In this document: one piece after another, positions 30,277 through 39,999 of the stretch
How the letters are laid out: every line of letters begins with the position of its first letter
Position numbering within the stretch: position 1 is the first letter of the stretch
DNA from: an uncultured Chloroflexia bacterium
Lineage (GTDB): Bacteria > Chloroflexota > Dehalococcoidia > DSTF01 > JALHUB01
Direction of reading: 5' to 3'
Assembly: GCA_963726245.1 (NCBI GenBank)
Contig: CAVSBT010000037.1
Location: forward strand, 32,001 to 96,000
Length of the DNA stretch: 64,000 bases
Program-made: the position numbers and the translations under genes
Notes under the pieces: model-generated
Seen by the model: only the letters and a program-made list of their open reading frames with translations
What the model was told of the DNA's origin: nothing
Database searches by the model: none

Positions 30277-31422
30277 CTAACCAGGCTTCCGCATCACGAT
30301 GAGGTGTTCGTTGGCCATGTGTCGCCGGTAGTCTCCGCGAACCATTTTCGATTCGTCAATGACCGGGCACAGTATGTTGGTGTCGAAGGTGAAGCCTGCC
30401 TGTTCGGCCATCTTGGCTACATCAGCCGACGAGAAGTGGCTGTTCGTGCCGTAGAGGATTGCCAGGACCCGTCGGGGCTTCAGCACGCGGTACATTTCCC
30501 GGAAGGAATCTGTGAGGTCAGCAGCGAAGTCCTTGGATGTCTCGAGCGGCTTCTTGGGCCTGTGAAGTTGAAGAAACTCGAGGTGTAGCCGATAGATTGA
30601 GGCGTACTTCGAGCCAGTGCCGTACGGGGGGGAGGTGAAGATGAAATGGAGGCTGTGGTCGGGCAATATGTCGGCCATGTCGCGGTTGTCCCGGGTGTAG
30701 ATTTCGACGTGGGGTGGCGGGCTAGGCAGCTGTTCGAGGAAGTGCCTCTCGCGGGTAGCCATGTCGAGCAATCGAGCTTGGAAGCGAGAAACGGCGTTGG
30801 GGAGCGGCTTGCCAGGTTTGATGTGAAGGTGGGCCTCCATGTTTCCCGCCCTGGAGGCCATGCGGACGATGCTGGAAAAGGCGACTTTGAGGAAGTCCAG
30901 GCGGTCGGGGTTGGGCTCGTCAGCGATACAGGAGAGAATGGCGGCGAATTGACGCTGGGTCTCCTCTGGGAACCAGTAGTCGATGTTGACGACGGGAGGA
31001 AGAACCGACTGAGGGTTGGAGATTGTTGTGACGGTGAGGCCAATGCGTTCGGCGAGGGCTCGGGCCTCGGCGAGTGAGTACTGGACGGGTGTTGTCTTGA
31101 CCTTCGAAACCAGGGTGGCAATGGGGAGGATATCGACGCCGACAGAGTGACGCCCTGTAAGCATGGCTTCCACGAGGGTGACTCCGGCGCCGCAGAACGG
31201 ATTGCCGACGGTTTCGCCGGGCTCAGTGAACCTCTCAATAGCCATTCTGGCAATGGGGGGCGGGCACATGGCGAAGTAGGGGTGGAAGCGGTGAACGGTG
31301 TGGTAGGCCTTGTTGTCTCTGACGACGACCCACTCCTCGTCGGGCTTCAGGTCGTCGTCAGCCACTTGGGACCAAGCCTGCGCGGCCTGGGTTTCGAACA
31401 GGGTTGTTTGCTTGCCGTCCAT
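30277..31422 (-). CDS. Amino-DNA methyltransferase (SPPY type, likely m4C; motif I before motif IV)
   Basis: HRFHPYFAM, NPFCGAGVT (motif I), FTSPPY (motif IV). Confidence 0.88.
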   Translation of the reverse strand: MDGKQTTLFETQAAQAWSQVADDDLKPDEEWVVVRDNKAYHTVHRFHPYFAMCPPPIARMAIERFTEPGETVGNPFCGAGVTLVEAMLTGRHSVGVDILPIATLVSKVKTTPVQYSLAEARALAERIGLTVTTISNPQSVLPPVVNIDYWFPEETQRQFAAILSCIADEPNPDRLDFLKVAFSSIVRMASRAGNMEAHLHIKPGKPLPNAVSRFQARLLDMATRERHFLEQLPSPPPHVEIYTRDNRDMADILPDHSLHFIFTSPPYGTGSKYASIYRLHLEFLQLHRPKKPLETSKDFAADLTDSFREMYRVLKPRRVLAILYGTNSHFSSADVAKMAEQAGFTFDTNILCPVIDESKMVRGDYRRHMANEHLIVMRKPG

Positions 31423-31526
31423 CGGACTCGATTTTAGTCGATAGTCACGTGGTGCGACAGGGGGTGGGCGACGCGGAATCTGAGCCTGCCCGTCCGCTTG
31501 GGCGGCACTCGCCGCCTCTCCAGCCC

Positions 31527-32637
31527 CTAACCGGCGGCGGCGGCCTCCTCTCGAAGGCGGAGCTCCTCCTGGCACGCCACCGGCCCTCGACGCAGCAGAG
31601 CCGCCAGGCACTTGGCGCAGCTCAGGCACTTCGACGGCGACGTGTCGCCGCGCTGCCAGCGGGCGATGAGGTCCGGCTCGCGGATCAGCGGCCTGCACAT
31701 CGATATCATGTCGGCCTCGCCGTTGCTGAGGATCGCCTCGGCCATCGAGAGGCTGCGGATGCCGCCCACAAGCATGACCGGAATATCGACGGCGCGCTTG
31801 GCCTCGGCGCTGTCCGCGCGGAAGTAGGCCTCGCTCCTCGTCCTCCGGCTTCCTCACCCGGGCGGCCCTCATGGCCTGCCCGGCGCTCACCTCCACGGCG
31901 GAGAGGCCCTCGGCGGCCAGCGCCTTCAGCGCCTCCAGCCCCTCGCTCAGCGGAAGCCCGCCGTCGCCGTGATCCTGGAGGCCTATCTTCATCCATACGG
32001 GGTAGTCCTCGCCCACCGCCCGTCGCACGGCGCGCAGCACCTCGACGTGAAAGCGCCGGCGTCCTTCGGGCGAGCCGCCCCACTCGTCCGTCCTGTGGTT
32101 GGTCAGGGGCGACAGGAACTGGCTCATGAGGTAGCCGTGCGCCGAGTGCAACTGGACGGCATCGAATCCGGCCTCTTTGCCCCGCGCGGCGGCGGCGGCG
32201 AAATCGGCCACGGTCGCCTCGATCTCGGCGGCGGTGAAGGCCCGATGGGGAAGCGGATACGACTCGACGTGGGAAGGCGCCAGGGCGACGCGGTCCGGGT
32301 CCTGAAGCATCCCTGTCTGCATCCCCGCGTGCGCGATCTGGAGGGCTATCCTGGCGCCGTGGTCGTGGGCGACCCTCGCCAGGCGTCGCAGCCCCGCGAT
32401 GTGGCGGTCTTCGGCGGCGCCGTACTGGCCGAGGGCGGCCTTCCCCTGCTCCGAGACGTAGGCATAGCCGGTGACGATGAGGCCCACGCCGCCGCGTGCC
32501 AGGCCCTCGAAGAGCTCCACGGAGGCGTCGGTGACCTCGCCGTCGTCGGTCGCCGTGTGGTCCCAGGTGGCGGAGCGCAGGAAACGATTGCGCATCTCGA
32601 GTCCGTCGATGGTAATCGGGTCGAAGGGGCTGGTCAT
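31527..32637 (-). CDS. NADH:flavin oxidoreductase (Old Yellow Enzyme family), frameshift near 31830
   Basis: NRFLRSAT, QIAHAG, GFDAVQLHSAHGYLMSQFLSP..N.RTDEWGG, CRPLIREP. Confidence 0.92.
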
Positions 32638-32671
32638 AGTATCTCCCTTGGAATCTAAGAGGGGCCCGGCC

Positions 32672-33151
32672 TCACGCCTCAGGGCGGGCGAGCTCGTCAC
32701 ATATCCTGCTGTCGAGCCAGTCGAAGGCTGCCTGGACCACGGTGTAGGCGCTCTCGTAGTCCTCTTCCCCGATGTCCAGCCCAGCATGCTCGGTGACGTA
32801 CGTGCCGGCGTGTACCAGGTTCCTCGTCTTCTGGACCGCCGACGCGTAGTCGCCGACGTCTCCTGGAGCGGCAGGGAGCCATGTCATGTCCTTGCCCACA
32901 TCAATTAGCTCGCCCAATGTCCATTTCTGGGGAGGCTTCGGCGCCCCCCTGTTGGTCTTGGGCACTCTGGCGGAGGCTCTCACGTTGTCTACCTGGCATT
33001 CCGCCATGAGAAGAAGCCCCGCCTCAAGCGCCGAGCCGAGCATGACACATCCCGCCAGGTATGCCCCAATCTGCCGGCACCTCTCGGCTTCGGCGCGGTA
33101 GAGGTCTACAAGCCGCCATACTTCCGTTGACTGTCGTGCGTCTGTCTCCAT
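32672..33151 (-). CDS. Hypothetical helical protein (DUF4145/HEPN-like)
   Basis: AYLAGCVMLGSALE, WTLGELI, RNLVH (RxxxH-like). Confidence 0.6.
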   Translation of the reverse strand: METDARQSTEVWRLVDLYRAEAERCRQIGAYLAGCVMLGSALEAGLLLMAECQVDNVRASARVPKTNRGAPKPPQKWTLGELIDVGKDMTWLPAAPGDVGDYASAVQKTRNLVHAGTYVTEHAGLDIGEEDYESAYTVVQAAFDWLDSRICDELARPEA

Positions 33152-34378: not shown

Positions 34379-34589
34379 GAGCCTCCCCGTATATTCCTGG
34401 CGTCCACGATAGACAGCTCCGTTGGCGGGACGGTCAGAGGCGGGCTGCGTAGGAATATACCACGAATGTCAAGATTCTTCGCCGCGTCGGGGTTGCAGGG
34501 ATCTGCCCGGTTGTTCGCTCCCCTACCGGGACCAGCACGCGTCCGATGAGGGGGATCGGGTGTGGAAATGGTGACTGGCAGAGGACCCT

Positions 34590-34720
34590 TGGTGGGCGAT
34601 GCAGGCCTTGAACCTGCCTGCCGCCCGGCAGGCCTGTGGCCTTCTGGGTGTAGGGCGTTTCGGGGTAAGCGCTCTGCGGCGTCCCTTCGCCCGTATTGTT
34701 CGACACCTTGCGCGGGAGTA
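34590..34720 (-). repeat. att-like copy 4: degenerate tRNA-Val 3' half plus diverged arm, with a 20-bp palindromic insertion
   Basis: TGGTGGGCGATGCAGGCCTTGAACCTG[ins]TGGCCTTCTGGGTGTA..GGTAAGCGCTCTGC..CGCGGGAGT. Confidence 0.8.
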
Positions 34721-34760
34721 GATTGCATTCATGGAAAGTCACCCGAGAGCAAGGAGATAC

Positions 34761-36044
34761 ATGATGAAGCGCTGGACATTCGTCGCACTTATCCTTTTCC
34801 TCATGGCAGCCGGCCTCGTCGTGGCCGGCTGCTCGAGCTCGAAGGACGAAACATCGGGCCCGACGCCCGGCGGTCCGGTTCCCGGCGTCACCGACACCGA
34901 GATCCTGCTGGGGACGCACATGCCGCTGAGCCAATCGCCGGCCTCGGCCTGGGGCGTTGTCGCCGATGGCATGAGGGCCTACTTCGACTACATCAATTCT
35001 CAGGGTGGTATCTACGGCCGCAAGATCAAGCTGCTAGTCGGGGATGACCACTACAGCGCGCCGGACGCGGTGGAAGTCGTGCGGGGCCTGGTGGAGCAGG
35101 ACAAAGTCTTCGCGATCGTGGGCGGCCTCGGCGACTCGTCGCACCTCGCCGTCATGAGCTACCTTGAGGAGAACGGCGTGCCTGACCTGTTCATCGGAGG
35201 CGGCATGCCGGAGTTCACCGATCCCGTCGTGAAGACACGCTTCAGCATGGTGACCGACTACGACACCGAGGGGAAGATCAATACGGACTATATGAAAGAG
35301 CACTTCGCCGGCAAGACGTTAGGCATCATCTACGAGAATAACCAGGGCGGCTCGTTGGGCTTGCAGCGGACCAAGGAGGGATTGGCCGACTCAGACATCA
35401 AGATCGTCTCCGAGCAGGCTTACGATTTCGGGAATTTCGACCTCACTGCGCAGGTGCAGCGCCTGAAGGCCGACAACCCCGAGTTCGTCTACGTGATAGG
35501 GAACCCGGGCTCTCTGGCCAGCGCCTTGAAGGCGGCTCGCGAGACCCTTAGCTGGGATGTGCCGTTCATGACCAGCGCTGTCTCTGCCGTCGAGATGACG
35601 ATTGCGCTCGCCGGAGCCGCCAACGCCGAAGGTCTGATCAGCTTCACAACGGGCAGGATGATCTCTGAGACGGACGATCCGGGCGTGCAGCGCAACATCG
35701 AGCTGATGAAGCAGTTCGCGCCCAACGTCGAGCCGAGCAGCCTGACGGAGTACGGCATAAGCACCGCTGAGTTGGTCGTGCAGGCACTAAAGAACGCCGG
35801 CCCGAACCTCACACGCGAGAGCGTTGTCGATGGGGCGGAGCAGATCCGCGGTTACTGCTGCATCGCTTGCATTGCACCGGTCAACCTCAGCCCGACCGAC
35901 CACCGCCCCGACGAAGCAGAGTGGCCCGAGCAGGTGGTCGACGGGAAGTGGAAGCGCATGTCGGACACGCCGGTGAGCTACGAGTCGACGCCCAGCGACG
36001 TCACCGCGTGCGAGAACGGGGAGCCGGTGAACAAGGGCCAGTAG
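34761..36044 (+). CDS. ABC substrate-binding lipoprotein (LivJ-like), orphan cassette cargo
   Basis: Lipobox VAGC, PGVTDTEILLG, INSQGGIYGRKI...DD.Y. Confidence 0.9.
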   Translation: MMKRWTFVALILFLMAAGLVVAGCSSSKDETSGPTPGGPVPGVTDTEILLGTHMPLSQSPASAWGVVADGMRAYFDYINSQGGIYGRKIKLLVGDDHYSAPDAVEVVRGLVEQDKVFAIVGGLGDSSHLAVMSYLEENGVPDLFIGGGMPEFTDPVVKTRFSMVTDYDTEGKINTDYMKEHFAGKTLGIIYENNQGGSLGLQRTKEGLADSDIKIVSEQAYDFGNFDLTAQVQRLKADNPEFVYVIGNPGSLASALKAARETLSWDVPFMTSAVSAVEMTIALAGAANAEGLISFTTGRMISETDDPGVQRNIELMKQFAPNVEPSSLTEYGISTAELVVQALKNAGPNLTRESVVDGAEQIRGYCCIACIAPVNLSPTDHRPDEAEWPEQVVDGKWKRMSDTPVSYESTPSDVTACENGEPVNKGQ

Positions 36045-36111
36045 GTTACGCCCTCGGCAACCGTGCCCTCCTAAACCGCGGTTGCGGTGACCTCAGCCGT
36101 GCAGGGTAGCC

Positions 36112-36228
36112 TGGTGAGCGATGCAGGGCTCGAACCTGCGACCTTCTGTGTGTAAAGCATCTGAGCCTGAGCGCTGTGCAACAGATTCAGCACCCCTGAG
36201 CGAAAACGCGGAAGTTATCATCTGGAAC
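36112..36228 (-). repeat. att-like copy 3: tRNA-Val 3' half plus conserved arm
   Basis: TGGTGAGCGATGCAGGGCTCGAACCTGCGACCTTCTGTGTGTAAA|GCATCTGAGCCTGAGCGCTGTGCAAC...CGAAAACGCGGAAGTTATCATCTGGAA. Confidence 0.92.
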
Positions 36229-36365
36229 GGGCGACAGTCGAGGTGCAACTAGCATGCCCGACTGGGAATGAGAAGGCCGCCCCTGAGGACGGCCCCTCGG
36301 CCACCTTCTACCCGATCTCCACGTATCAGCCGCCAGGGCACACACGGCCCCGGCAGCAATGGGCG

Positions 36366-36729
36366 CTATTGCTTCGCGTAGTTGCTCGCGCCGTTCCAAT
36401 CTACCAGCGACGACCGGCTCGTTCCCGACGACCCAAGCGTCGTGCCCAGACGGCATCGCCACTACTTCTCCCGGGCCAATCTCGAACTCGGAGCCATCCG
36501 CCATCAGAACGTGAAGGCGGCCCGAGAGCTGGTACTGGAAATGAGGCGCCTCACACCATTCCGTCTTGGCGATCGGCTTCACGTGTTTAGACCATCTCCA
36601 GCCAGGCTCTAGGGTGATCCGGCCGACGGTTCCGCCCCCAATGTTAATGACCTCCAGCCTTCCCTTCTCGAAGGTCCTCGTCTCGTCGGGCGACTTCAGG
36701 TCCTTCCGCTCGTAGCTTGCCATCGTCAT
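36366..36729 (-). CDS. Cupin domain protein, frameshift near 36408
   Basis: LEPGWRWS, CEAPH, GHDAWVVGNEP; repaired end LVDWNGASNYAKQ*. Confidence 0.85.
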
Positions 36730-36891
36730 TCTCCTCCTATGATGCGACGTTCTTGATGCGAACAGTGGGTAGCTTGTCGCTCAGCAGACTAGCGCCCCAT
36801 CTCGTGGCTATCAGCGTGGCCCTCCCGGTTGCAGCGGTCTTCCTGGAGAGATCAGCACAACACTCGACGCGCGGGTGTCTAACCGAAAGAA

Positions 36892-37200
36892 CTAGGAGCT
36901 GTACCTCTTGCCGATCGTCTCCAGTCCCGCCTTCCGGAGGTCTTCCGGAGTCATCGCAATCCGGAACTTCACGGTAGCATTGAAGCTGAGGAAGAATGGC
37001 TCCGCAAGGGCCGGTATCCTTGACGGCTCCGACACGTCAACGATCAGGACCGCCCCGCGAAAGCCATCCCGCTCGGTGAAGTAAACCGCTTCGGGCTTGA
37101 TATCTTCTAGCGCTTGCTGAATCTTTGCGCCGACGGTGCCGTTCCGGGTAAGGGTGTTGAAGGGTTCCACCGGAAAATCGACGAGCATTACCATGCGCAT
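36892..37200 (-). CDS. Small DUF3303/GYD-like protein
   Basis: IKPEAVYFTERDG.RGA, IPALAEPFF, AMTPEDL; GGAGG SD. Confidence 0.75.
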   Translation of the reverse strand: MRMVMLVDFPVEPFNTLTRNGTVGAKIQQALEDIKPEAVYFTERDGFRGAVLIVDVSEPSRIPALAEPFFLSFNATVKFRIAMTPEDLRKAGLETIGKRYSS

Positions 37201-37460
37201 GATTACGTCCTCCCATTCTGGCGTCCGACTGGCCGCCTCTCCTAAGCGTAGGGGTCGGATGTGAGGGGCACGTGAACGAGAACCGGTGCGCCGTGAAGAA
37301 AGCATGCAGAATGAAAGGTGAGTCGGCGATGGACCGGGGGGATCGGCTATTGGGCCGTTCCAGGCGCAGGCTGGCGGCTGGTTGCACGCTGTAATCCTCC
37401 GGGGTGCAACTGTCGCAGCCTCAAGCGTTCATTGAGTCAGAGAGGGCAGCCATCCCTCAT

Positions 37461-37605
37461 AATCTGGAAAGTGAATCTGTTTGGAGTTCTGGTGGGCGAT
37501 GAGGGACTTGAACCCCCGGCCTTCTGTGTGTAAAGCATCTGAGCCTGAGCGCTGTGCAACAGATTCGGCACCCCACCGAAAACGCAGAAGTTATCATCTG
37601 GAAAC
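37461..37605 (-). repeat. att-like copy 2: tRNA-Val 3' half with conserved arms on both sides
   Basis: CTGGAAAGTGAATCTG..GTTC-TGGTGGGCGATGAGGGACTTGAACCCCCGGCCTTCTGTGTGTAAA|GCATCTGAGCC...TTATCATCTGGAAA. Confidence 0.92.
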
Positions 37606-37674
37606 GAAGGCTCTGAGACGGCCGCATTCGCCAAGGACCGGCCGTCGTATCGGGGGGAGCTTCTGCCTTATGGG

Positions 37675-39024
37675 CTAGCTTGCCCGCCAGCGCCTCCGGA
37701 CATACCATGCTGCGGCTGCGAGCACGACGAGCGCTGCTGCCGCTACCGCTACGACGACGTACTGCAAAGACGAGGAGCCACCGGCGGCAGACGAGGAGCC
37801 ACCAACGGCAGACGGCGAGCCACCAGCCGCAGACGGGGAGCCACGAACGGCAGATGGCGAGCCACCGGCCGCAGACGGCGAGCCGCCGACGGCAGAGGGC
37901 GAGCTACCGACCGCGGACGGCGAGCGGCTTGGGGCATGGGTAGGCGCGGGGGTTGATGTAGGGGTTGTAGGCGTGTCTTGGATCACCGACACGGTGCCGC
38001 TGCCTTGGTTCGCCACATAGATGCGGTTCGTGTTGGGGTTGACATCTACGGCCGCGGGGAAACTCCCGACCGCCACGGTGGCGACGACCTTGTTGCTGCC
38101 GCCGTCGATGATCGAGACGTTGTTGCTGTTCATGTTCGCCACGTAGATGAGGTTTGTGTTGGGGTTGACGGCCACGCTTTCGGGGCCGGTCCCAACCGCT
38201 ACGGCGGTGATGACCGTGTTGGTGGTGCCGTCGATGACGGAGACGTCGTTGCTGGCAAAGTTCGTCACGTAGATGCGGTTCGTGTCGGGGTTGACGGCTA
38301 CACTGGAAGGGTTAGTCTCGACAGGCACGGTGGCGACGACCGAGTTGGTGGCGCCGTCGATGACGGAGAGGTCTTTGCTGCCATAGTTCGTCACGTAGAT
38401 GTGGTTCGTGTTGGGGTTGACGGCCACGGCCAAGGGGAAACTCCCAGCCGCTGCGGTGGCGACGACCGTGTTGTTGGCACCGTCGATGACGGAGACGTTG
38501 TGCTGCCATATTCGGCGCGTAGATGAGGTTCGTGTTGGGATTGACGGCCACGCGCTGGGGGTAGCCATATTGGACCGCTACGGTGGCGACGACCGTGTTG
38601 CTGCCGCCGTCGATGACGGAGACGTTGTGCTTGTGCCACCGTTCGCCACGTAGATGTGGTTCGTGTTGGGGTCGACGGCCACGCCGTAGGGCATGGTGCC
38701 GACCACTATGGTGGCGACGACTGTGTTGCTGCCGCCATCGATGACGGAGACGTTGCCGCTGTCATAATTGGTCACAGTATTGGGCACGTAAATAAGGTTC
38801 GTGTTAGGATTGACGGCCACGCCGTCGGGCTTAGTCCCAACTGCTACGGTGGCGACCACCACCGGGCCGCCGCTGGCGCCGGCCGTTGGGGCCTGGCCGC
38901 CATGCGCGGAGATGATGCCTGCGCCCAAGGTGGCGATAAACGCAAGTAACAGCAAGTGAGGAAGGGTGGCTGTCTGAGCTTCTCGGGGACCGGCAAGGCG
39001 CATCTGCAACCTCCTTGTTGGCAC
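37675..39024 (-). CDS. YVTN/YncE beta-propeller surface protein with C-terminal TM anchor, frameshifted near 38510-38630
   Basis: Repeated VAVNPNTN.IYV.N..S..VSVIDG units; signal peptide; terminal hydrophobic helix plus RRR. Confidence 0.88.
37769..37925 (-). repeat. About 7 x 21-bp tandem repeat encoding an SPSAVGG-like linker
   Basis: GACG..GAGCCACC...CGCA-like units. Confidence 0.85.
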
Positions 39025-39146
39025 GGCCAGGCAGACATTTCAGAAACGAGCCACAAGCGCGGCAAGTATAGCGTTGTCCAAGCGTTTGTCAACCCTCTCC
39101 CCTGGACTGTGGTGATCTTGAGGCACGGAGGTAAACGGAAGTCAGA

Positions 39147-39292
39147 AGCTGGAAAGCGAATCTGGAGGGGGTTCTGGTGGGCGATGAGGGACTTGAACCC
39201 CCGACCTTCTGTGTGTAAACCATCTGGCGGTAAACGCTGTGCAACGGAATCGGGATGGGTGACCGAAAACGCGGAAGTTATCAGCTGGAAAA
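39147..39292 (-). repeat. att-like copy 1: tRNA-Val 3' half with conserved arms on both sides
   Basis: CTGGAAAGCGAATCTGGAGGGGGTTC-TGGTGGGCGATGAGGGACTTGAACCCCCGACCTTCTGTGTGTAAA|CCATCTG..CGCTGTGCAAC..CGAAAACGCGGAAGTTATCAGCTGGAAA. Confidence 0.92.
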
Positions 39293-39402
39293 TGGGGCAT
39301 TAGTCGAGACTGCGACTAGTACCAGTGGAAGCTCTGCGCGATGGGGAGCGACGAGACAGCGTCGCCAGGGGACGATGGCGATTTAAGCAGGCGCATTTGC
39401 CG

Positions 39403-39430
39403 TTGACAGTCGGTGCATATGCATTACAAT
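39403..39430 (+). promoter_or_regulatory. Sigma70-type promoter inside the smallest cassette
   Basis: TTGACA-16bp-TACAAT. Confidence 0.65.
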
Positions 39431-39496
39431 GCCGTCATCGGAAAGGGCTGGTACGGGCACTGCTTGGCCCGGGGGCGGGAGAACAAGGAGGGGTCA

Positions 39497-39796
39497 GTGC
39501 TGTTCGCAGACATCTACACCTACAAGGGGAACTTGGGCGAGGAGGACCAGAGGCGCATAATCAACCTCTTCACCAATTGGGCACCACCTGCCGGCGTAGA
39601 GATCAAATCGCACTACGAGTTTGCAGACGGCTCAGGCGGCCTCACCATCTCGGAGGTGTCGACGCCCGCCGCGCAGTACGAAGCATGCGCCGCCTGGTCC
39701 GCCTTCATGGACCAGAGGATAGTGCCGCTGCTCGATGTCACGGAATCCGTCCCTCTCGCAATGAAGGTAGGCGCCTGGCGGGATTCTGTGCGCTAG
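39497..39796 (+). CDS. DUF3303 family protein
   Basis: F.NWAPPAGVEIKSHY.FADGSGG; AAGGAGG SD before GTG. Confidence 0.8.
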   Translation: MLFADIYTYKGNLGEEDQRRIINLFTNWAPPAGVEIKSHYEFADGSGGLTISEVSTPAAQYEACAAWSAFMDQRIVPLLDVTESVPLAMKVGAWRDSVR

Positions 39797-39922
39797 TACC
39801 GAAGGGGTCAGTCAGCCTCGTCACCGAGTCACATGGGGTTGGGCCGCGGTCCGGCCCTTTCCGTTTCCAGGCTGTGGCTGAGGACGAGCCGTCCGGGTTC
39901 AGGCTAGAACCGGAGGTGGTTC

Positions 39923-39999
39923 TGGTGGGCGATGCAGGACTCGAACCTGCGCCCTTCTGTGTGTAAAACAGACGCTCTTGCCAACTGAGCTAATCGCCC
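39923..39999 (-). tRNA. tRNA-Val(TAC)
   Basis: Cloverleaf: GGGCGAT/ATCGCCC acceptor, GCTC/GAGC D stem, TCTGT-TTTACAC-ACAGA anticodon arm, GCAGG-TTCGAGT-CCTGC T arm, ACCA end. Confidence 0.97.

What the first reader, a model, noticed from the sequence alone, without database searches (positions are those of the whole stretch)
34560..39999. tRNA-Val-anchored array of integrase-free mini gene cassettes (integron-like system candidate)
Seen: an intact tRNA-Val(TAC) at 39923-39999 (-) is followed by four same-orientation copies of its 3' half, starting at 39175, 37490, 36112 and 34590. Spacings are 748, 1685, 1378 and 1522 bp. The three best copies match the tRNA up to the anticodon loop (TTTACAC), then switch to a shared ~70-bp non-tRNA arm (CATCTG..CGCTGTGCAAC..CGAAAACGCRGAAGTTATCAKCTGGAA). 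The 34590 copy is a diverged version. Each interval holds only 1-2 unrelated genes in mixed orientation: DUF3303; YVTN propeller; cupin plus DUF3303-like; orphan ABC binding lipoprotein. No recombinase is visible in the window. Established: tyrosine integrases commonly cross over in the tRNA anticodon loop and can form tandem islands, but such islands normally carry their integrase and are far larger. Inference: these are non-autonomous cassettes serially inserted by a trans-acting integrase, newest nearest the tRNA, with the tRNA acting like an integron attI site.
Basis: partly seen in the sequence, partly recalled or inferred. Interest (0 to 1): 0.92.

Follow-up and report, generated by a model that had tools for sequence, protein, structure and literature searches.

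The report
Integrase-less mini-island array at tRNA-Val
A soil and wetland Chloroflexota genome carries, behind its only tRNA-Val(TAC) gene, a row of very small inserted gene units that lack their own integrase, which suggests a quiet way of collecting accessory genes that standard island finders would miss.

Summary
tRNA-Val(TAC) at 39923-39999 (-) is followed by four same-strand copies of its 3' part. Three are fused at the anticodon loop to a shared non-tRNA arm; the fourth is decayed.

The arm is one side of a long attachment site. The same arm-bounded arrays follow tRNA-Val in at least 16 of 61 related Chloroflexota genomes and occur on 38 metagenome contigs. Fifty-seven units measure 589-4534 bp (median 1248). 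The cargo of 63 units (six from other families) falls into 44 sequence clusters.

Only 1 of the 57 units (L107) holds a full integrase. It is a 302-aa Xer-like tyrosine recombinase gene placed directly after the tRNA-side arm. Two others hold fragments of it.

The window units have no recombinase trace, and no cognate integrase was found in this genome (83% complete).

My reading: this is a tandem array built by site-specific integration of a small element family, and most units are now non-autonomous. Movement by an integrase supplied in trans is plausible but not shown. Inert decay explains part of the data.

It is not an integron. It is a new variant of tRNA-island accretion, comparable to cis-mobilizable elements.

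The parts
39923..39999 (-). tRNA-Val(TAC), the only tRNA-Val(TAC) gene in the genome. It is the target site. Its 3' part (39923-39967) is the current copy of the core.
39413..39796 (+). Unit 1 cargo: a DUF3303 protein of 127 aa. Unit 1 spans 39172-39922, 748 bp half to half.
   Evidence: Homologous cargo is found in G011, G014 (inverted) and G016.
39220..39325 (-). Distal (P) arm of unit 1. It is the most atypical of the three arms.
39175..39219 (-). Displaced tRNA 3' part, copy 1. Its T stem is GGGGG/CCCTC.
39136..39174 (-). tRNA-side (P') arm of unit 2. It is the same arm that precedes the integrase gene in L107.
37675..39024 (-). Unit 2 cargo: a secreted NHL/YncE-like beta-propeller with a Ser/Pro-rich repeat and a C-terminal anchor. 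It is read as two ORFs (38578-39024 and 37675-38568).
37535..37640 (-). Distal (P) arm of unit 2
37490..37534 (-). Displaced tRNA 3' part, copy 2
37460..37489 (-). tRNA-side (P') arm of unit 3
36892..37305 (-). Unit 3 cargo: a 137-aa ORF with no family match
36187..36729 (-). Unit 3 cargo: a cupin-like gene. The ORF runs into the arm, probably through a 1-base frame error near 36406.
   Evidence: table 4
36157..36262 (-). Distal (P) arm of unit 3
36112..36156 (-). Displaced tRNA 3' part, copy 3. Its T stem is GCAGG/CCTGC.
34731..36044 (+). Unit 4 cargo: a Peripla_BP_6 solute-binding lipoprotein. This is the oldest unit. It sits at this place in 7 genomes of two genera and is flanked by full arms on both sides in L124.
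34590..34720 (-). Decayed arm plus tRNA 3' part, with a ~20-nt insert (copy 4)

Best explanation
The locus is a tandem array made by repeated site-specific integration into the single tRNA-Val(TAC) gene. The elements belong to a family of very small integrative elements found in this Chloroflexota lineage.

Structure of the attachment site (shown):
- A core equal to the tRNA from the anticodon loop to CCA.
- A distal arm of about 100-180 nt.
- A tRNA-side arm of about 40-100 nt.
- The arms carry repeated ...GATAACTTCC / ...CTAACTTCC-type motifs.

Mechanism (inferred):
- The crossover lies at the 7-nt anticodon loop.
- Each insertion hands its own 3' tRNA part to the working gene and pushes the previous 3' part, now fused to the element's distal arm, further away.

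Who is autonomous:
- Autonomous members carry a 302-aa Xer-like tyrosine integrase gene directly behind the tRNA-side arm (shown on L107 and L123).
- The four units in the window, like 56 of the 57 units surveyed, have no full integrase and carry one or two accessory genes.

My odds for each step:
- The array was built by this integrase family: about 0.85.
- The integrase-less units arose from integrase-bearing elements by loss of the integrase side: about 0.7. This would often be a deletion starting at the core.
- At least the units that keep both arms (window units 2 and 3) can still be excised or inserted when a cognate integrase is supplied in trans or by a neighbouring element: about 0.4.
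For: 1. Junction anatomy. Identity with the tRNA starts exactly at the anticodon loop. Three junctions share the arm.

2. T-stem changes. The T stem differs between copies by compensating changes: 3 of 8 predicted pairs have a change on both sides with pairing kept. This is expected if each 3' part once served in a working tRNA.

3. Spread. Full-length arm plus half matches of 55 bits or more, starting at model position 20 or lower, occur in 16 of 61 related genomes. That is 11 of 18 in the same family, G000 included. They also occur on 38 metagenome contigs.

4. Location. Arrays directly follow tRNA-Val(TAC) in G009, G011, G012, G014, G010 and G002.

5. Unit size. The 57 units are 589-4534 bp, median 1248.

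6. Cargo diversity. The 63 cargo sequences fall into 44 clusters, 38 of them singletons. They include DUF1330, GYD, hemerythrin, RelA/SpoT-like, SIR2-like, patatin, enoyl-CoA hydratase and others.

7. Variable order. The same cargo sits at different ranks, and once inverted. The window's DUF3303 unit matches the tail of G011 unit 2 and matches G014 unit 1 inverted. G009 unit 2 matches G012 unit 1 at 94%. G009 unit 5 equals G014 units 2 plus 3.

8. Integrase-bearing sibling with the same arms. L107 reads tRNA-Val, tRNA-side arm, a second GATAACTTCC motif, ribosome-binding site, a 302-aa integrase (PF00589 94.7 bits plus a SAM-like N domain), four cargo ORFs, then arm plus half. L123 carries a second one, 82% identical.

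9. Motif co-variation. In another family both arms change together, to ...GAGCTGATAACTGG.... The arm blocks GATAACT, GTTTTCG and ACAGCGCT also persist in a sister element at tRNA-Gly(TCC), whose integrase is 55-58% identical.

10. Secondary-site insertion. In G016 the arm is joined at the same point to CTATCAC|GCAGG..., and G009 holds that site unoccupied.

11. No remnant here. The window units show no integrase trace (best tblastn E about 1). No PF00589 or PF00239 match lies on contig C37.

12. Near-consensus arms. Of 37 units whose arm scores 115 bits or more, 35 have neither an integrase nor a fragment.
Against: - No cognate integrase was found in this genome (83% complete). None of the 61 related genomes has one above 58% identity.
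- Nothing was found in viral contigs.
- Only 18 of 57 units keep the tRNA-side arm motif, and window unit 1 does not. Many units may therefore no longer be substrates.
- Three units hold integrase fragments right behind the core: L079 unit 2, an L143 unit and an L127 unit. Decay in place does happen.
- Shared cargo between genera is 83-90% identical in DNA. The flanking binding protein is 80-87% identical in protein. Vertical descent with deletions between the direct repeats can therefore explain much of the variation.
- By eye, in the pair window unit 1 / G011 unit 2, the arm is more diverged than the cargo.
- The arm model was built from this window's own copies, so its scores favour them.
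- Public runs gave only short contigs and no valid excision or circle junction.
Confidence: 0.7

Rival explanations
1. Inert scars. Every unit is the decayed remainder of a once integrase-bearing island. Nothing moves today. Differences between genomes come from deletions and homologous recombination between the repeated arm and half sequences.
For: - Integrase fragments lie directly behind the core in 3 of 63 units.
- 39 of 57 units lack the tRNA-side arm motif.
- No cognate integrase was found in 61 genomes.
- Some units look fused, with an internal arm missing: G009 unit 5 equals G014 units 2 plus 3.
- Arm scores fall with distance from the tRNA in G011, G014 and this window.
- Cargo identity between genera is similar to that of the flanking gene.
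Against: - 35 of 37 units with near-consensus arms show no trace of an integrase. Random decay should leave more intermediates and a wider range of sizes than a median of 1.25 kb.
- Arm blocks stay conserved across families while the cargo is unrelated.
- The same cargo type occurs next to the tRNA in some genomes and in an ectopic array in G009.
- The arm is joined to a secondary site in G016 that is empty in G009.
Confidence: 0.25
2. Host Xer recombinases, not a dedicated integrase, move the integrase-less units. This would resemble elements that exploit XerCD at dif, or the dif modules of Acinetobacter plasmids.
For: - Two Xer-type recombinase genes (about 160-170 bits to PF00589) are present in every family genome searched.
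- The element's own integrase is Xer-like in sequence: XerC model 161.8 bits, below the cut-off of 335.
- The units lack an integrase.
Against: - A dedicated integrase gene sits directly behind the tRNA-side arm in L107 and L123.
- The core is a tRNA anticodon stem-loop, and no dif-like site was identified. I did not search for dif.
- Arm motifs co-vary with the integrase lineage.
Confidence: 0.05
3. The arm plus tRNA half is a structured RNA or a folded single-strand site, such as a tRNA-like processing signal or an attC-like hairpin. In this reading it was repeated for a regulatory purpose and is not an attachment-site junction.
For: It is strongly conserved, always on one strand, and ends in a tRNA T arm and CCA.
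Against: - RNAalifold on 23 copies from three families predicts only the T arm (8 pairs) and nothing in the arm.
- There is no Rfam family other than tRNA.
- The arm is also found joined to non-tRNA sequence at the same breakpoint.
Confidence: 0.03
4. Assembly artefact, or plain tandem duplication of the tRNA gene region in a metagenome-assembled genome.
For: The genome is a 46-contig bin with 6% contamination. One arm copy sits at a contig end, C42.
Against: - The same architecture occurs in two single-contig genomes, G009 and G011, and on 38 independent metagenome contigs.
- The intervals hold unrelated genes, so this is not duplicated sequence.
Confidence: 0.01

Closest known systems
Cis-mobilizable elements (CIMEs) and tandem accretion of islands at tRNA genes. 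Described for ICESt1-related elements of Streptococcus. I read passages of the review PMC5704250; the primary papers are only cited there.
   Same: Both are elements that have lost integration genes but keep attL and attR. Both lie in tandem at the 3' end of a target gene and grow by new site-specific insertions. Composite excision is possible.
   Different: - These units are far smaller (median 1.25 kb) and occur up to five or more in a row.
- The parent is a ~4.5-kb integrase-plus-cargo element with no conjugation or mobilisation genes seen by Pfam.
- The host is an uncultured Chloroflexota lineage.
- No mobilisation has been shown.
Tycheposons of Prochlorococcus. I read passages of the preprint 10.1101/2020.12.28.424599.
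   Same: Both are cargo-carrying elements with tyrosine recombinases that target tRNA genes. Successive insertions are separated by partial tRNA copies, with older elements pushed inward. Fragmented integrases and extra partial tRNAs are read as older events.
   Different: - The passages I read describe tycheposons as integrase-carrying, with degenerate remnants beside them.
- Here the integrase-less form is the rule (56 of 57).
- Each unit keeps a long conserved arm.
- I did not test homology of the integrases.
Integrons. The definition is from general knowledge, recalled. IntI membership was tested with NCBIfam.
   Same: Both are one fixed insertion point that collects many small, diverse, mostly single-gene units without recombinases of their own. 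The newest unit is probably nearest the insertion point.
   Different: - There is no IntI and no integrase next to the site.
- There are no attC hairpins. Each unit instead carries a ~200-275-bp double-strand-type attachment site that includes a tRNA part.
- Genes lie in both orientations.
tRNA-gene islands of the anticodon-loop class, as catalogued by Islander. I read passages of PMC4383910. Williams 2002 is cited there and was not read.
   Same: Both show an intact tRNA gene plus displaced 3' fragments as direct repeats, an attachment site centred on the anticodon loop, and a tyrosine integrase family.
   Different: Islander requires an integrase inside each island and rejects candidates under 2 kb. 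It lists only 4 tandems of three or more among 3919 islands. Arrays like this one would be filtered out.
Xer-dependent integrative elements and plasmid dif modules. Recalled; the Islander paper mentions islands that rely on host Xer.
   Same: Both are integrase-less modules that can stack in tandem at one recombination site and carry one or a few genes.
   Different: The site here is a tRNA anticodon stem-loop with long arms. A dedicated Xer-like integrase exists on sibling elements.

Membership tests
Integron | IntI-type integrase encoded next to the insertion site | tested here: not met
   No PF00589 match on contig C37. The sibling elements' integrase scores 65.6 bits on TIGR02249 against a cut-off of 265.
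Integron | attC sites: imperfect inverted repeats that fold as hairpins at each cassette end | tested here: not met
   The consensus fold of 23 junctions gives only the tRNA T arm.
Integron | Mostly promoterless cassettes in one orientation behind a common promoter | tested here: not met
   Genes lie on both strands in the window and in relatives. Promoters were not tested.
tRNA-targeting genomic island (tyrosine integrase, anticodon-loop class) | Intact tRNA gene plus same-strand displaced 3' fragment(s) bounding the inserted DNA | tested here: met
tRNA-targeting genomic island (tyrosine integrase, anticodon-loop class) | Integrase gene on board | tested here: not met
   Not met for the window units. 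Met for sibling L107.
tRNA-targeting genomic island (tyrosine integrase, anticodon-loop class) | Breakpoint at the anticodon loop | tested here: met
   Identity starts at TTTACAC in all three junctions. The breakpoint is the same at a secondary site. Strand exchange itself is not testable here.
Cis-mobilizable element (CIME) | Integration and transfer genes lost, both att sites retained | tested here: met
   Window units 2 and 3 have both arms and no recombinase. Unit 1 lacks the tRNA-side motif.
Cis-mobilizable element (CIME) | Derived from an ICE or IME | tested here: inconclusive
   The parent-like element L107 has an integrase but no recognisable transfer genes. Integrase fragments occur in 3 of 63 units.
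Cis-mobilizable element (CIME) | Excision or transfer together with a functional neighbour | not testable with these tools
   Public runs gave only short contigs.
Tycheposon | Tycheposon-type recombinase and hallmark modules | not tested
   I ran no comparison with tycheposon proteins and read only passages of the preprint.
Xer-dependent element (IMEX / dif module) | dif-like 28-bp XerC/XerD site at the junctions | not tested
   I did not define a dif site for this lineage.

The most novel reading that the evidence does not exclude
The integrase-less units form a self-standing class of minimal mobile elements: one or two genes plus a ~250-bp attachment site. They circulate in soil and wetland Chloroflexota by borrowing a rare Xer-like integrase. 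The single tRNA-Val(TAC) gene then acts as a gene-collecting platform, functionally parallel to an integron but built from classical attP x attB recombination.
Probability: 0.3. Interest if true: 0.85.

Novelty: new variant of a known kind. Interest (0 to 1): 0.62.

Why it matters
Island finders demand an on-board integrase and a minimum size. Islander rejects candidates under 2 kb and those without an integrase. Arrays of sub-2-kb integrase-less units would therefore be invisible to them.

In the f1-type arrays surveyed here this is the usual state of the tRNA-Val(TAC) locus. Those arrays hold a very diverse pool of small accessory genes: 44 clusters among 63 units.

If the units still move, this is a second natural way to stack single genes at one site, next to integrons. 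It would come with a defined small integrase and a defined ~250-bp site that could be tested at the bench. If they do not move, the arrays are still a clear record of how small islands lose their integrase.

Tried and rejected
- **310-aa recombinase.** This tyrosine recombinase lies 1.2 kb from an arm in G002 and G016, and I considered it as the missing integrase. I rejected it. It is a separate multicopy gene whose spread does not follow the arms: it is in 11 of 14 genomes of family f4, where no full-length arm match of 55 bits or more was listed, and it was not found in G000, G001, G004 or G005, while G010 and G012 gave only Xer-like matches of about 30% identity. It is only 27% identical to the L107 integrase. 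Copies share just the ~1-kb gene.
- **Other G009 integrases.** Those next to tRNA-Pro(GGG) and at 2.26 Mb have no link to the arms.
- **Larger arm-bounded intervals in other families.** I looked there for an autonomous element. The G018 interval of 18.8 kb holds only metabolic genes. The two G026 intervals of 4.6 and 5.1 kb hold a sigma/anti-sigma pair, DUF4331, TPR proteins and unknowns. None has PF00589 inside.
- **Viral contigs.** The arm pattern gave 0 matches. The L107 integrase gave no relative.
- **Public runs.** No run held more than 0.25 of the sampled words, and all were short Logan contigs. The listed joints have sides under 50 letters and fall between the repeats themselves, so I count none as an excision or circle junction. 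Many contigs diverge at 36224-36227, the outer edge of arm 3, into unlike sequences. This is only a weak hint of variable neighbours. Parts without cover say nothing.
- **Empty-site search.** I looked for an empty site for the single unit at G009 2.12 Mb. The result was swamped by other repeats and was inconclusive.
- **Not used.** I did not use structure prediction, complex prediction, the protein-atlas search or the search of protein representatives.
- **Unpublished genome.** G045 is among the 61 genomes in the tallies. No specific claim rests on it.
- **Supplements.** Supplements of the tycheposon preprint were closed. They may show integrase-less examples that I could not see.

Full report
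ARAGORN finds a single tRNA in the window, tRNA-Val(tac) at 39923-39999 on the minus strand. Rfam confirms it and finds no other credible family between 30000 and 45000. The repeat finder gives five in-register copies of the tRNA's 3' part at 34590, 36112, 37490, 39175 and 39923, with spacings 1522, 1378, 1685 and 748 (family D8). It also gives a 128-nt family for the three good junctions (D6). In the sequence and the alignments, identity with the tRNA begins at the anticodon loop TTTACAC and runs to CCA. Upstream, the three good copies share a non-tRNA arm. Against the whole genome, copy 2 matches copy 3 at 89% (E 2.6e-37) and copy 1 at 84% (E 6.8e-32). A fifth copy opens the 4.8-kb contig C42. 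This tRNA-Val(TAC) gene is the only one of its kind among the 57 tRNA genes called in the genome.

**Gene content is mostly as reported.** Unit 1 holds a DUF3303 protein. Unit 2 holds an NHL/YncE-type beta-propeller read as two ORFs. Unit 3 holds a weak cupin match and a 137-aa ORF. The fourth interval holds a Peripla_BP_6 binding lipoprotein. The 137-aa ORF is not detectably DUF3303-like. No tyrosine or serine recombinase domain lies on the window's contig.

**The organism.** The genome is a 2.68-Mb, 46-contig bin, 83% complete, with 67% G+C. Records that share the arm are titled as uncultured Chloroflexia or Dehalococcoidia MAGs.

**The arm marks a widespread element family.**
- I built a sequence-only model of arm plus half from the window copies and C42. 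Those copies match it by construction.
- Full-length matches of 55 bits or more occur in 16 of 61 related genomes: 11 of 18 in the same family including G000, 3 of 14 in family f2 and 2 of 13 in family f5.
- An exact two-block pattern of the arm occurs in 15 stretches of reference-genome contigs, in 38 metagenome contigs and in no viral contig.
- In G009, G011, G012, G014, G010 and G002 the arm copies follow tRNA-Val(TAC) on the same strand, as in the window.
- From nhmmer hits I cut out 57 units of the family-f1 type and 6 from other families. The 57 measure 589-4534 bp, median 1248. The 6 measure 1.4-18.8 kb.
- Short metagenome contigs bias this sample toward small units. The genome-borne arrays show the same range, 0.75-2.55 kb.

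**What the junctions look like in full.**
- Alignment of 36 copies with flanks and of 25 copies with 230 nt of upstream sequence shows that the distal arm is conserved for about 100-180 nt in many copies.
- About a third of units start, right after CCA, with a conserved tRNA-side arm. By a fuzzy motif test this is 18 of 57.
- Both arms carry related motifs: ...CAGATGATAACTTCC on the distal arm and ...CAGCTTCTAACTTCC-like on the tRNA side.
- In family f2 both arms change together, to ...GAGCTGATAACTGG-like forms. That is the pattern expected of protein-binding sites that evolve with their recombinase.
- A consensus fold of 23 copies from three families predicts only the tRNA T arm. Three of its eight pairs are kept through changes on both sides. 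It predicts no structure in the arm. This argues against a structured RNA or an attC-like hairpin.

**An integrase-bearing sibling exists.**
- I ran tblastn with eight recombinases against all units. One full integrase was found, in the largest f1 unit, on locus L107.
- L107 reads in tRNA direction: tRNA-Val(TAC), the same tRNA-side arm as window units 2 and 3, a second GATAACTTCC motif, a ribosome-binding site, a 302-aa ORF, four cargo ORFs, then the distal arm plus half.
- The protein has PF00589 (94.7 bits) and a SAM-like N-terminal domain. By eye it keeps the usual catalytic motif residues in the sequence printed.
- It is Xer-like but below the cut-offs of XerC, XerD and integron integrase models.
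- L123 carries an 82%-identical gene behind a degenerate tRNA-like site and ends in the arm.
- Fragments of this integrase lie directly behind the core in three further units: L079 unit 2, an L143 unit and an L127 unit.
- The protein collection holds about ten clusters at 82% identity or more, nearly all on contigs under 9 kb. It also holds thousands of more distant relatives, named XerD or integrase by their sources.
- In 61 related genomes the best matches are only 50-58% identical. Those in G009 and G002 sit beside tRNA-Gly(TCC), with an arm-like sequence 5.7-6.3 kb away that is fused to the reverse of the tRNA-Gly 5' half. This is a sister element with the same arm blocks and a different target.
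- Neither the window region nor the rest of G000 has a cognate integrase or a fragment.

**Evidence on insertion and mobility.**
- The binding-protein gene lies at the far end of the array in seven genomes of two genera.
- In G011 and on L124 that gene is itself followed by an arm plus half. In the window it is followed by the decayed copy 4. I therefore read it as the oldest, fixed unit.
- Between the tRNA and that gene the content differs: 3 units here, 5 in G009, 3 in G014, 2 in G011 and 1 in G015.
- Shared units sit at different ranks, and one is inverted.
- In G016 the arm is joined, at the same breakpoint, to CTATCAC|GCAGG.... G009 has that site unoccupied, with a matching CTGC...GCAG inverted repeat around a 7-nt spacer. 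This points to integrase-type insertion at a look-alike of the anticodon stem-loop.

**Evidence against present-day mobility.**
- No cognate integrase was found in the genomes that hold arrays.
- The tRNA-side arm is lost in 39 of 57 units.
- Cargo identity between genera (83-90%) is no higher than expected for vertical descent.
- In one orthologous pair the arm is, by eye, more diverged than the cargo.
- Public runs gave no usable junction.

**Reading.** The array was built by serial integration at the anticodon loop of tRNA-Val by this element family. This step is well supported. Most units are non-autonomous. Two facts suggest that the integrase side is often lost by deletion starting at the core: integrase fragments begin 4-22 nt behind the core, and the tRNA-side arm is frequently missing. 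This is inference. It remains open whether integrase-less units still move when an integrase is supplied. In favour, 35 of 37 units with near-consensus arms have no integrase trace, and window units 2 and 3 keep both arms.

**One unexplained point.** A subclass of halves carries a ~20-nt insert. Under a crossover at the anticodon loop, such halves should once have been part of the working tRNA.

**Comparison with known systems.** This is not an integron: no IntI, no attC, and genes in mixed orientation. It matches the logic of tandem accretion and cis-mobilizable elements at tRNA genes (passages of PMC5704250). It also matches tycheposon islands with partial tRNAs and remnants (passages of the preprint). 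It differs in scale (units around 1 kb), in the dominance of integrase-less units, in the long conserved arms, and in host. Islander's rules would exclude it (passages of PMC4383910). My four literature searches listed no description of such arrays in Chloroflexota. This covers only the open-access library held here.

Noticed in passing
window 36383-36420: The cupin-like ORF (36187-36729, -) runs 14 codons into the arm. Contigs of relatives in three runs lack one base at 36406. Without that base the frame would end at a typical cupin C-terminus upstream of the arm. This is either a frameshift or an assembly error.
   Followed up: partly
window 37675-39024: The beta-propeller gene is split into two ORFs in different frames. 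It contains 126-nt blade repeats and seven 21-nt repeats (37747-37946) that encode a Ser/Pro/Gly-rich linker before a hydrophobic tail.
   Followed up: no
window 30277-32787 (-): An 836-aa ORF matches both an Old Yellow Enzyme-type flavin oxidoreductase domain and an N6/N4 DNA methylase domain. This is an odd combination and may be an ORF-calling artefact.
   Followed up: no
G000 contig C42:1-107 (L004): A fifth arm-plus-half copy sits at the very start of a 4.8-kb contig. The repeats probably break the assembly, and a further unit or a strain variant of the array is unplaced.
   Followed up: partly
L052 9373-10302, L053 6320-7252, L055 10598-11596: A 309-310-aa tyrosine recombinase gene is conserved as a ~1-kb module in unrelated contexts. 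It has several copies and many fragments per genome across the order. It seems to be a separate mobile gene of unknown target.
   Followed up: partly
L105 474-6302 (G009) and L144 2354-8791 (G002): A sister element of about 6 kb lies beside tRNA-Gly(TCC). Its integrase is 55-58% identical to that of L107. Its distal arm shares the blocks GATAACT, GTTTTCG and ACAGCGCT and is fused to the reverse of the tRNA 5' half, so the element sits on the 5' side of the gene.
   Followed up: partly
L083 2043-9505 (G031): Arm-like matches accompany two tRNA-Arg(TCT) genes 4.7 kb apart. This may be a third target of the arm family.
   Followed up: no
window 34590-34690; L058, L062, L054, L059, L063 junctions: A subclass of the displaced tRNA parts has a ~20-nt GC-rich insert between the variable loop and the T stem. 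It recurs in several genomes and loci. It is hard to reconcile with a crossover at the anticodon loop unless it spreads by conversion between junctions.
   Followed up: partly
L046 11610-15518 (G009), L135 149-4418: In the sister genus the array lies directly downstream of an rRNA operon: tRNA-Ile, tRNA-Ala, then about 3 kb, then tRNA-Met and tRNA-Val. In the window's genome an Nramp gene precedes the tRNA instead.
   Followed up: no
L050 5880-6630 (G009): Two other ~100-nt sequences near an ectopic arm are multicopy in five related genomes. They look like further small repeat families.
   Followed up: no
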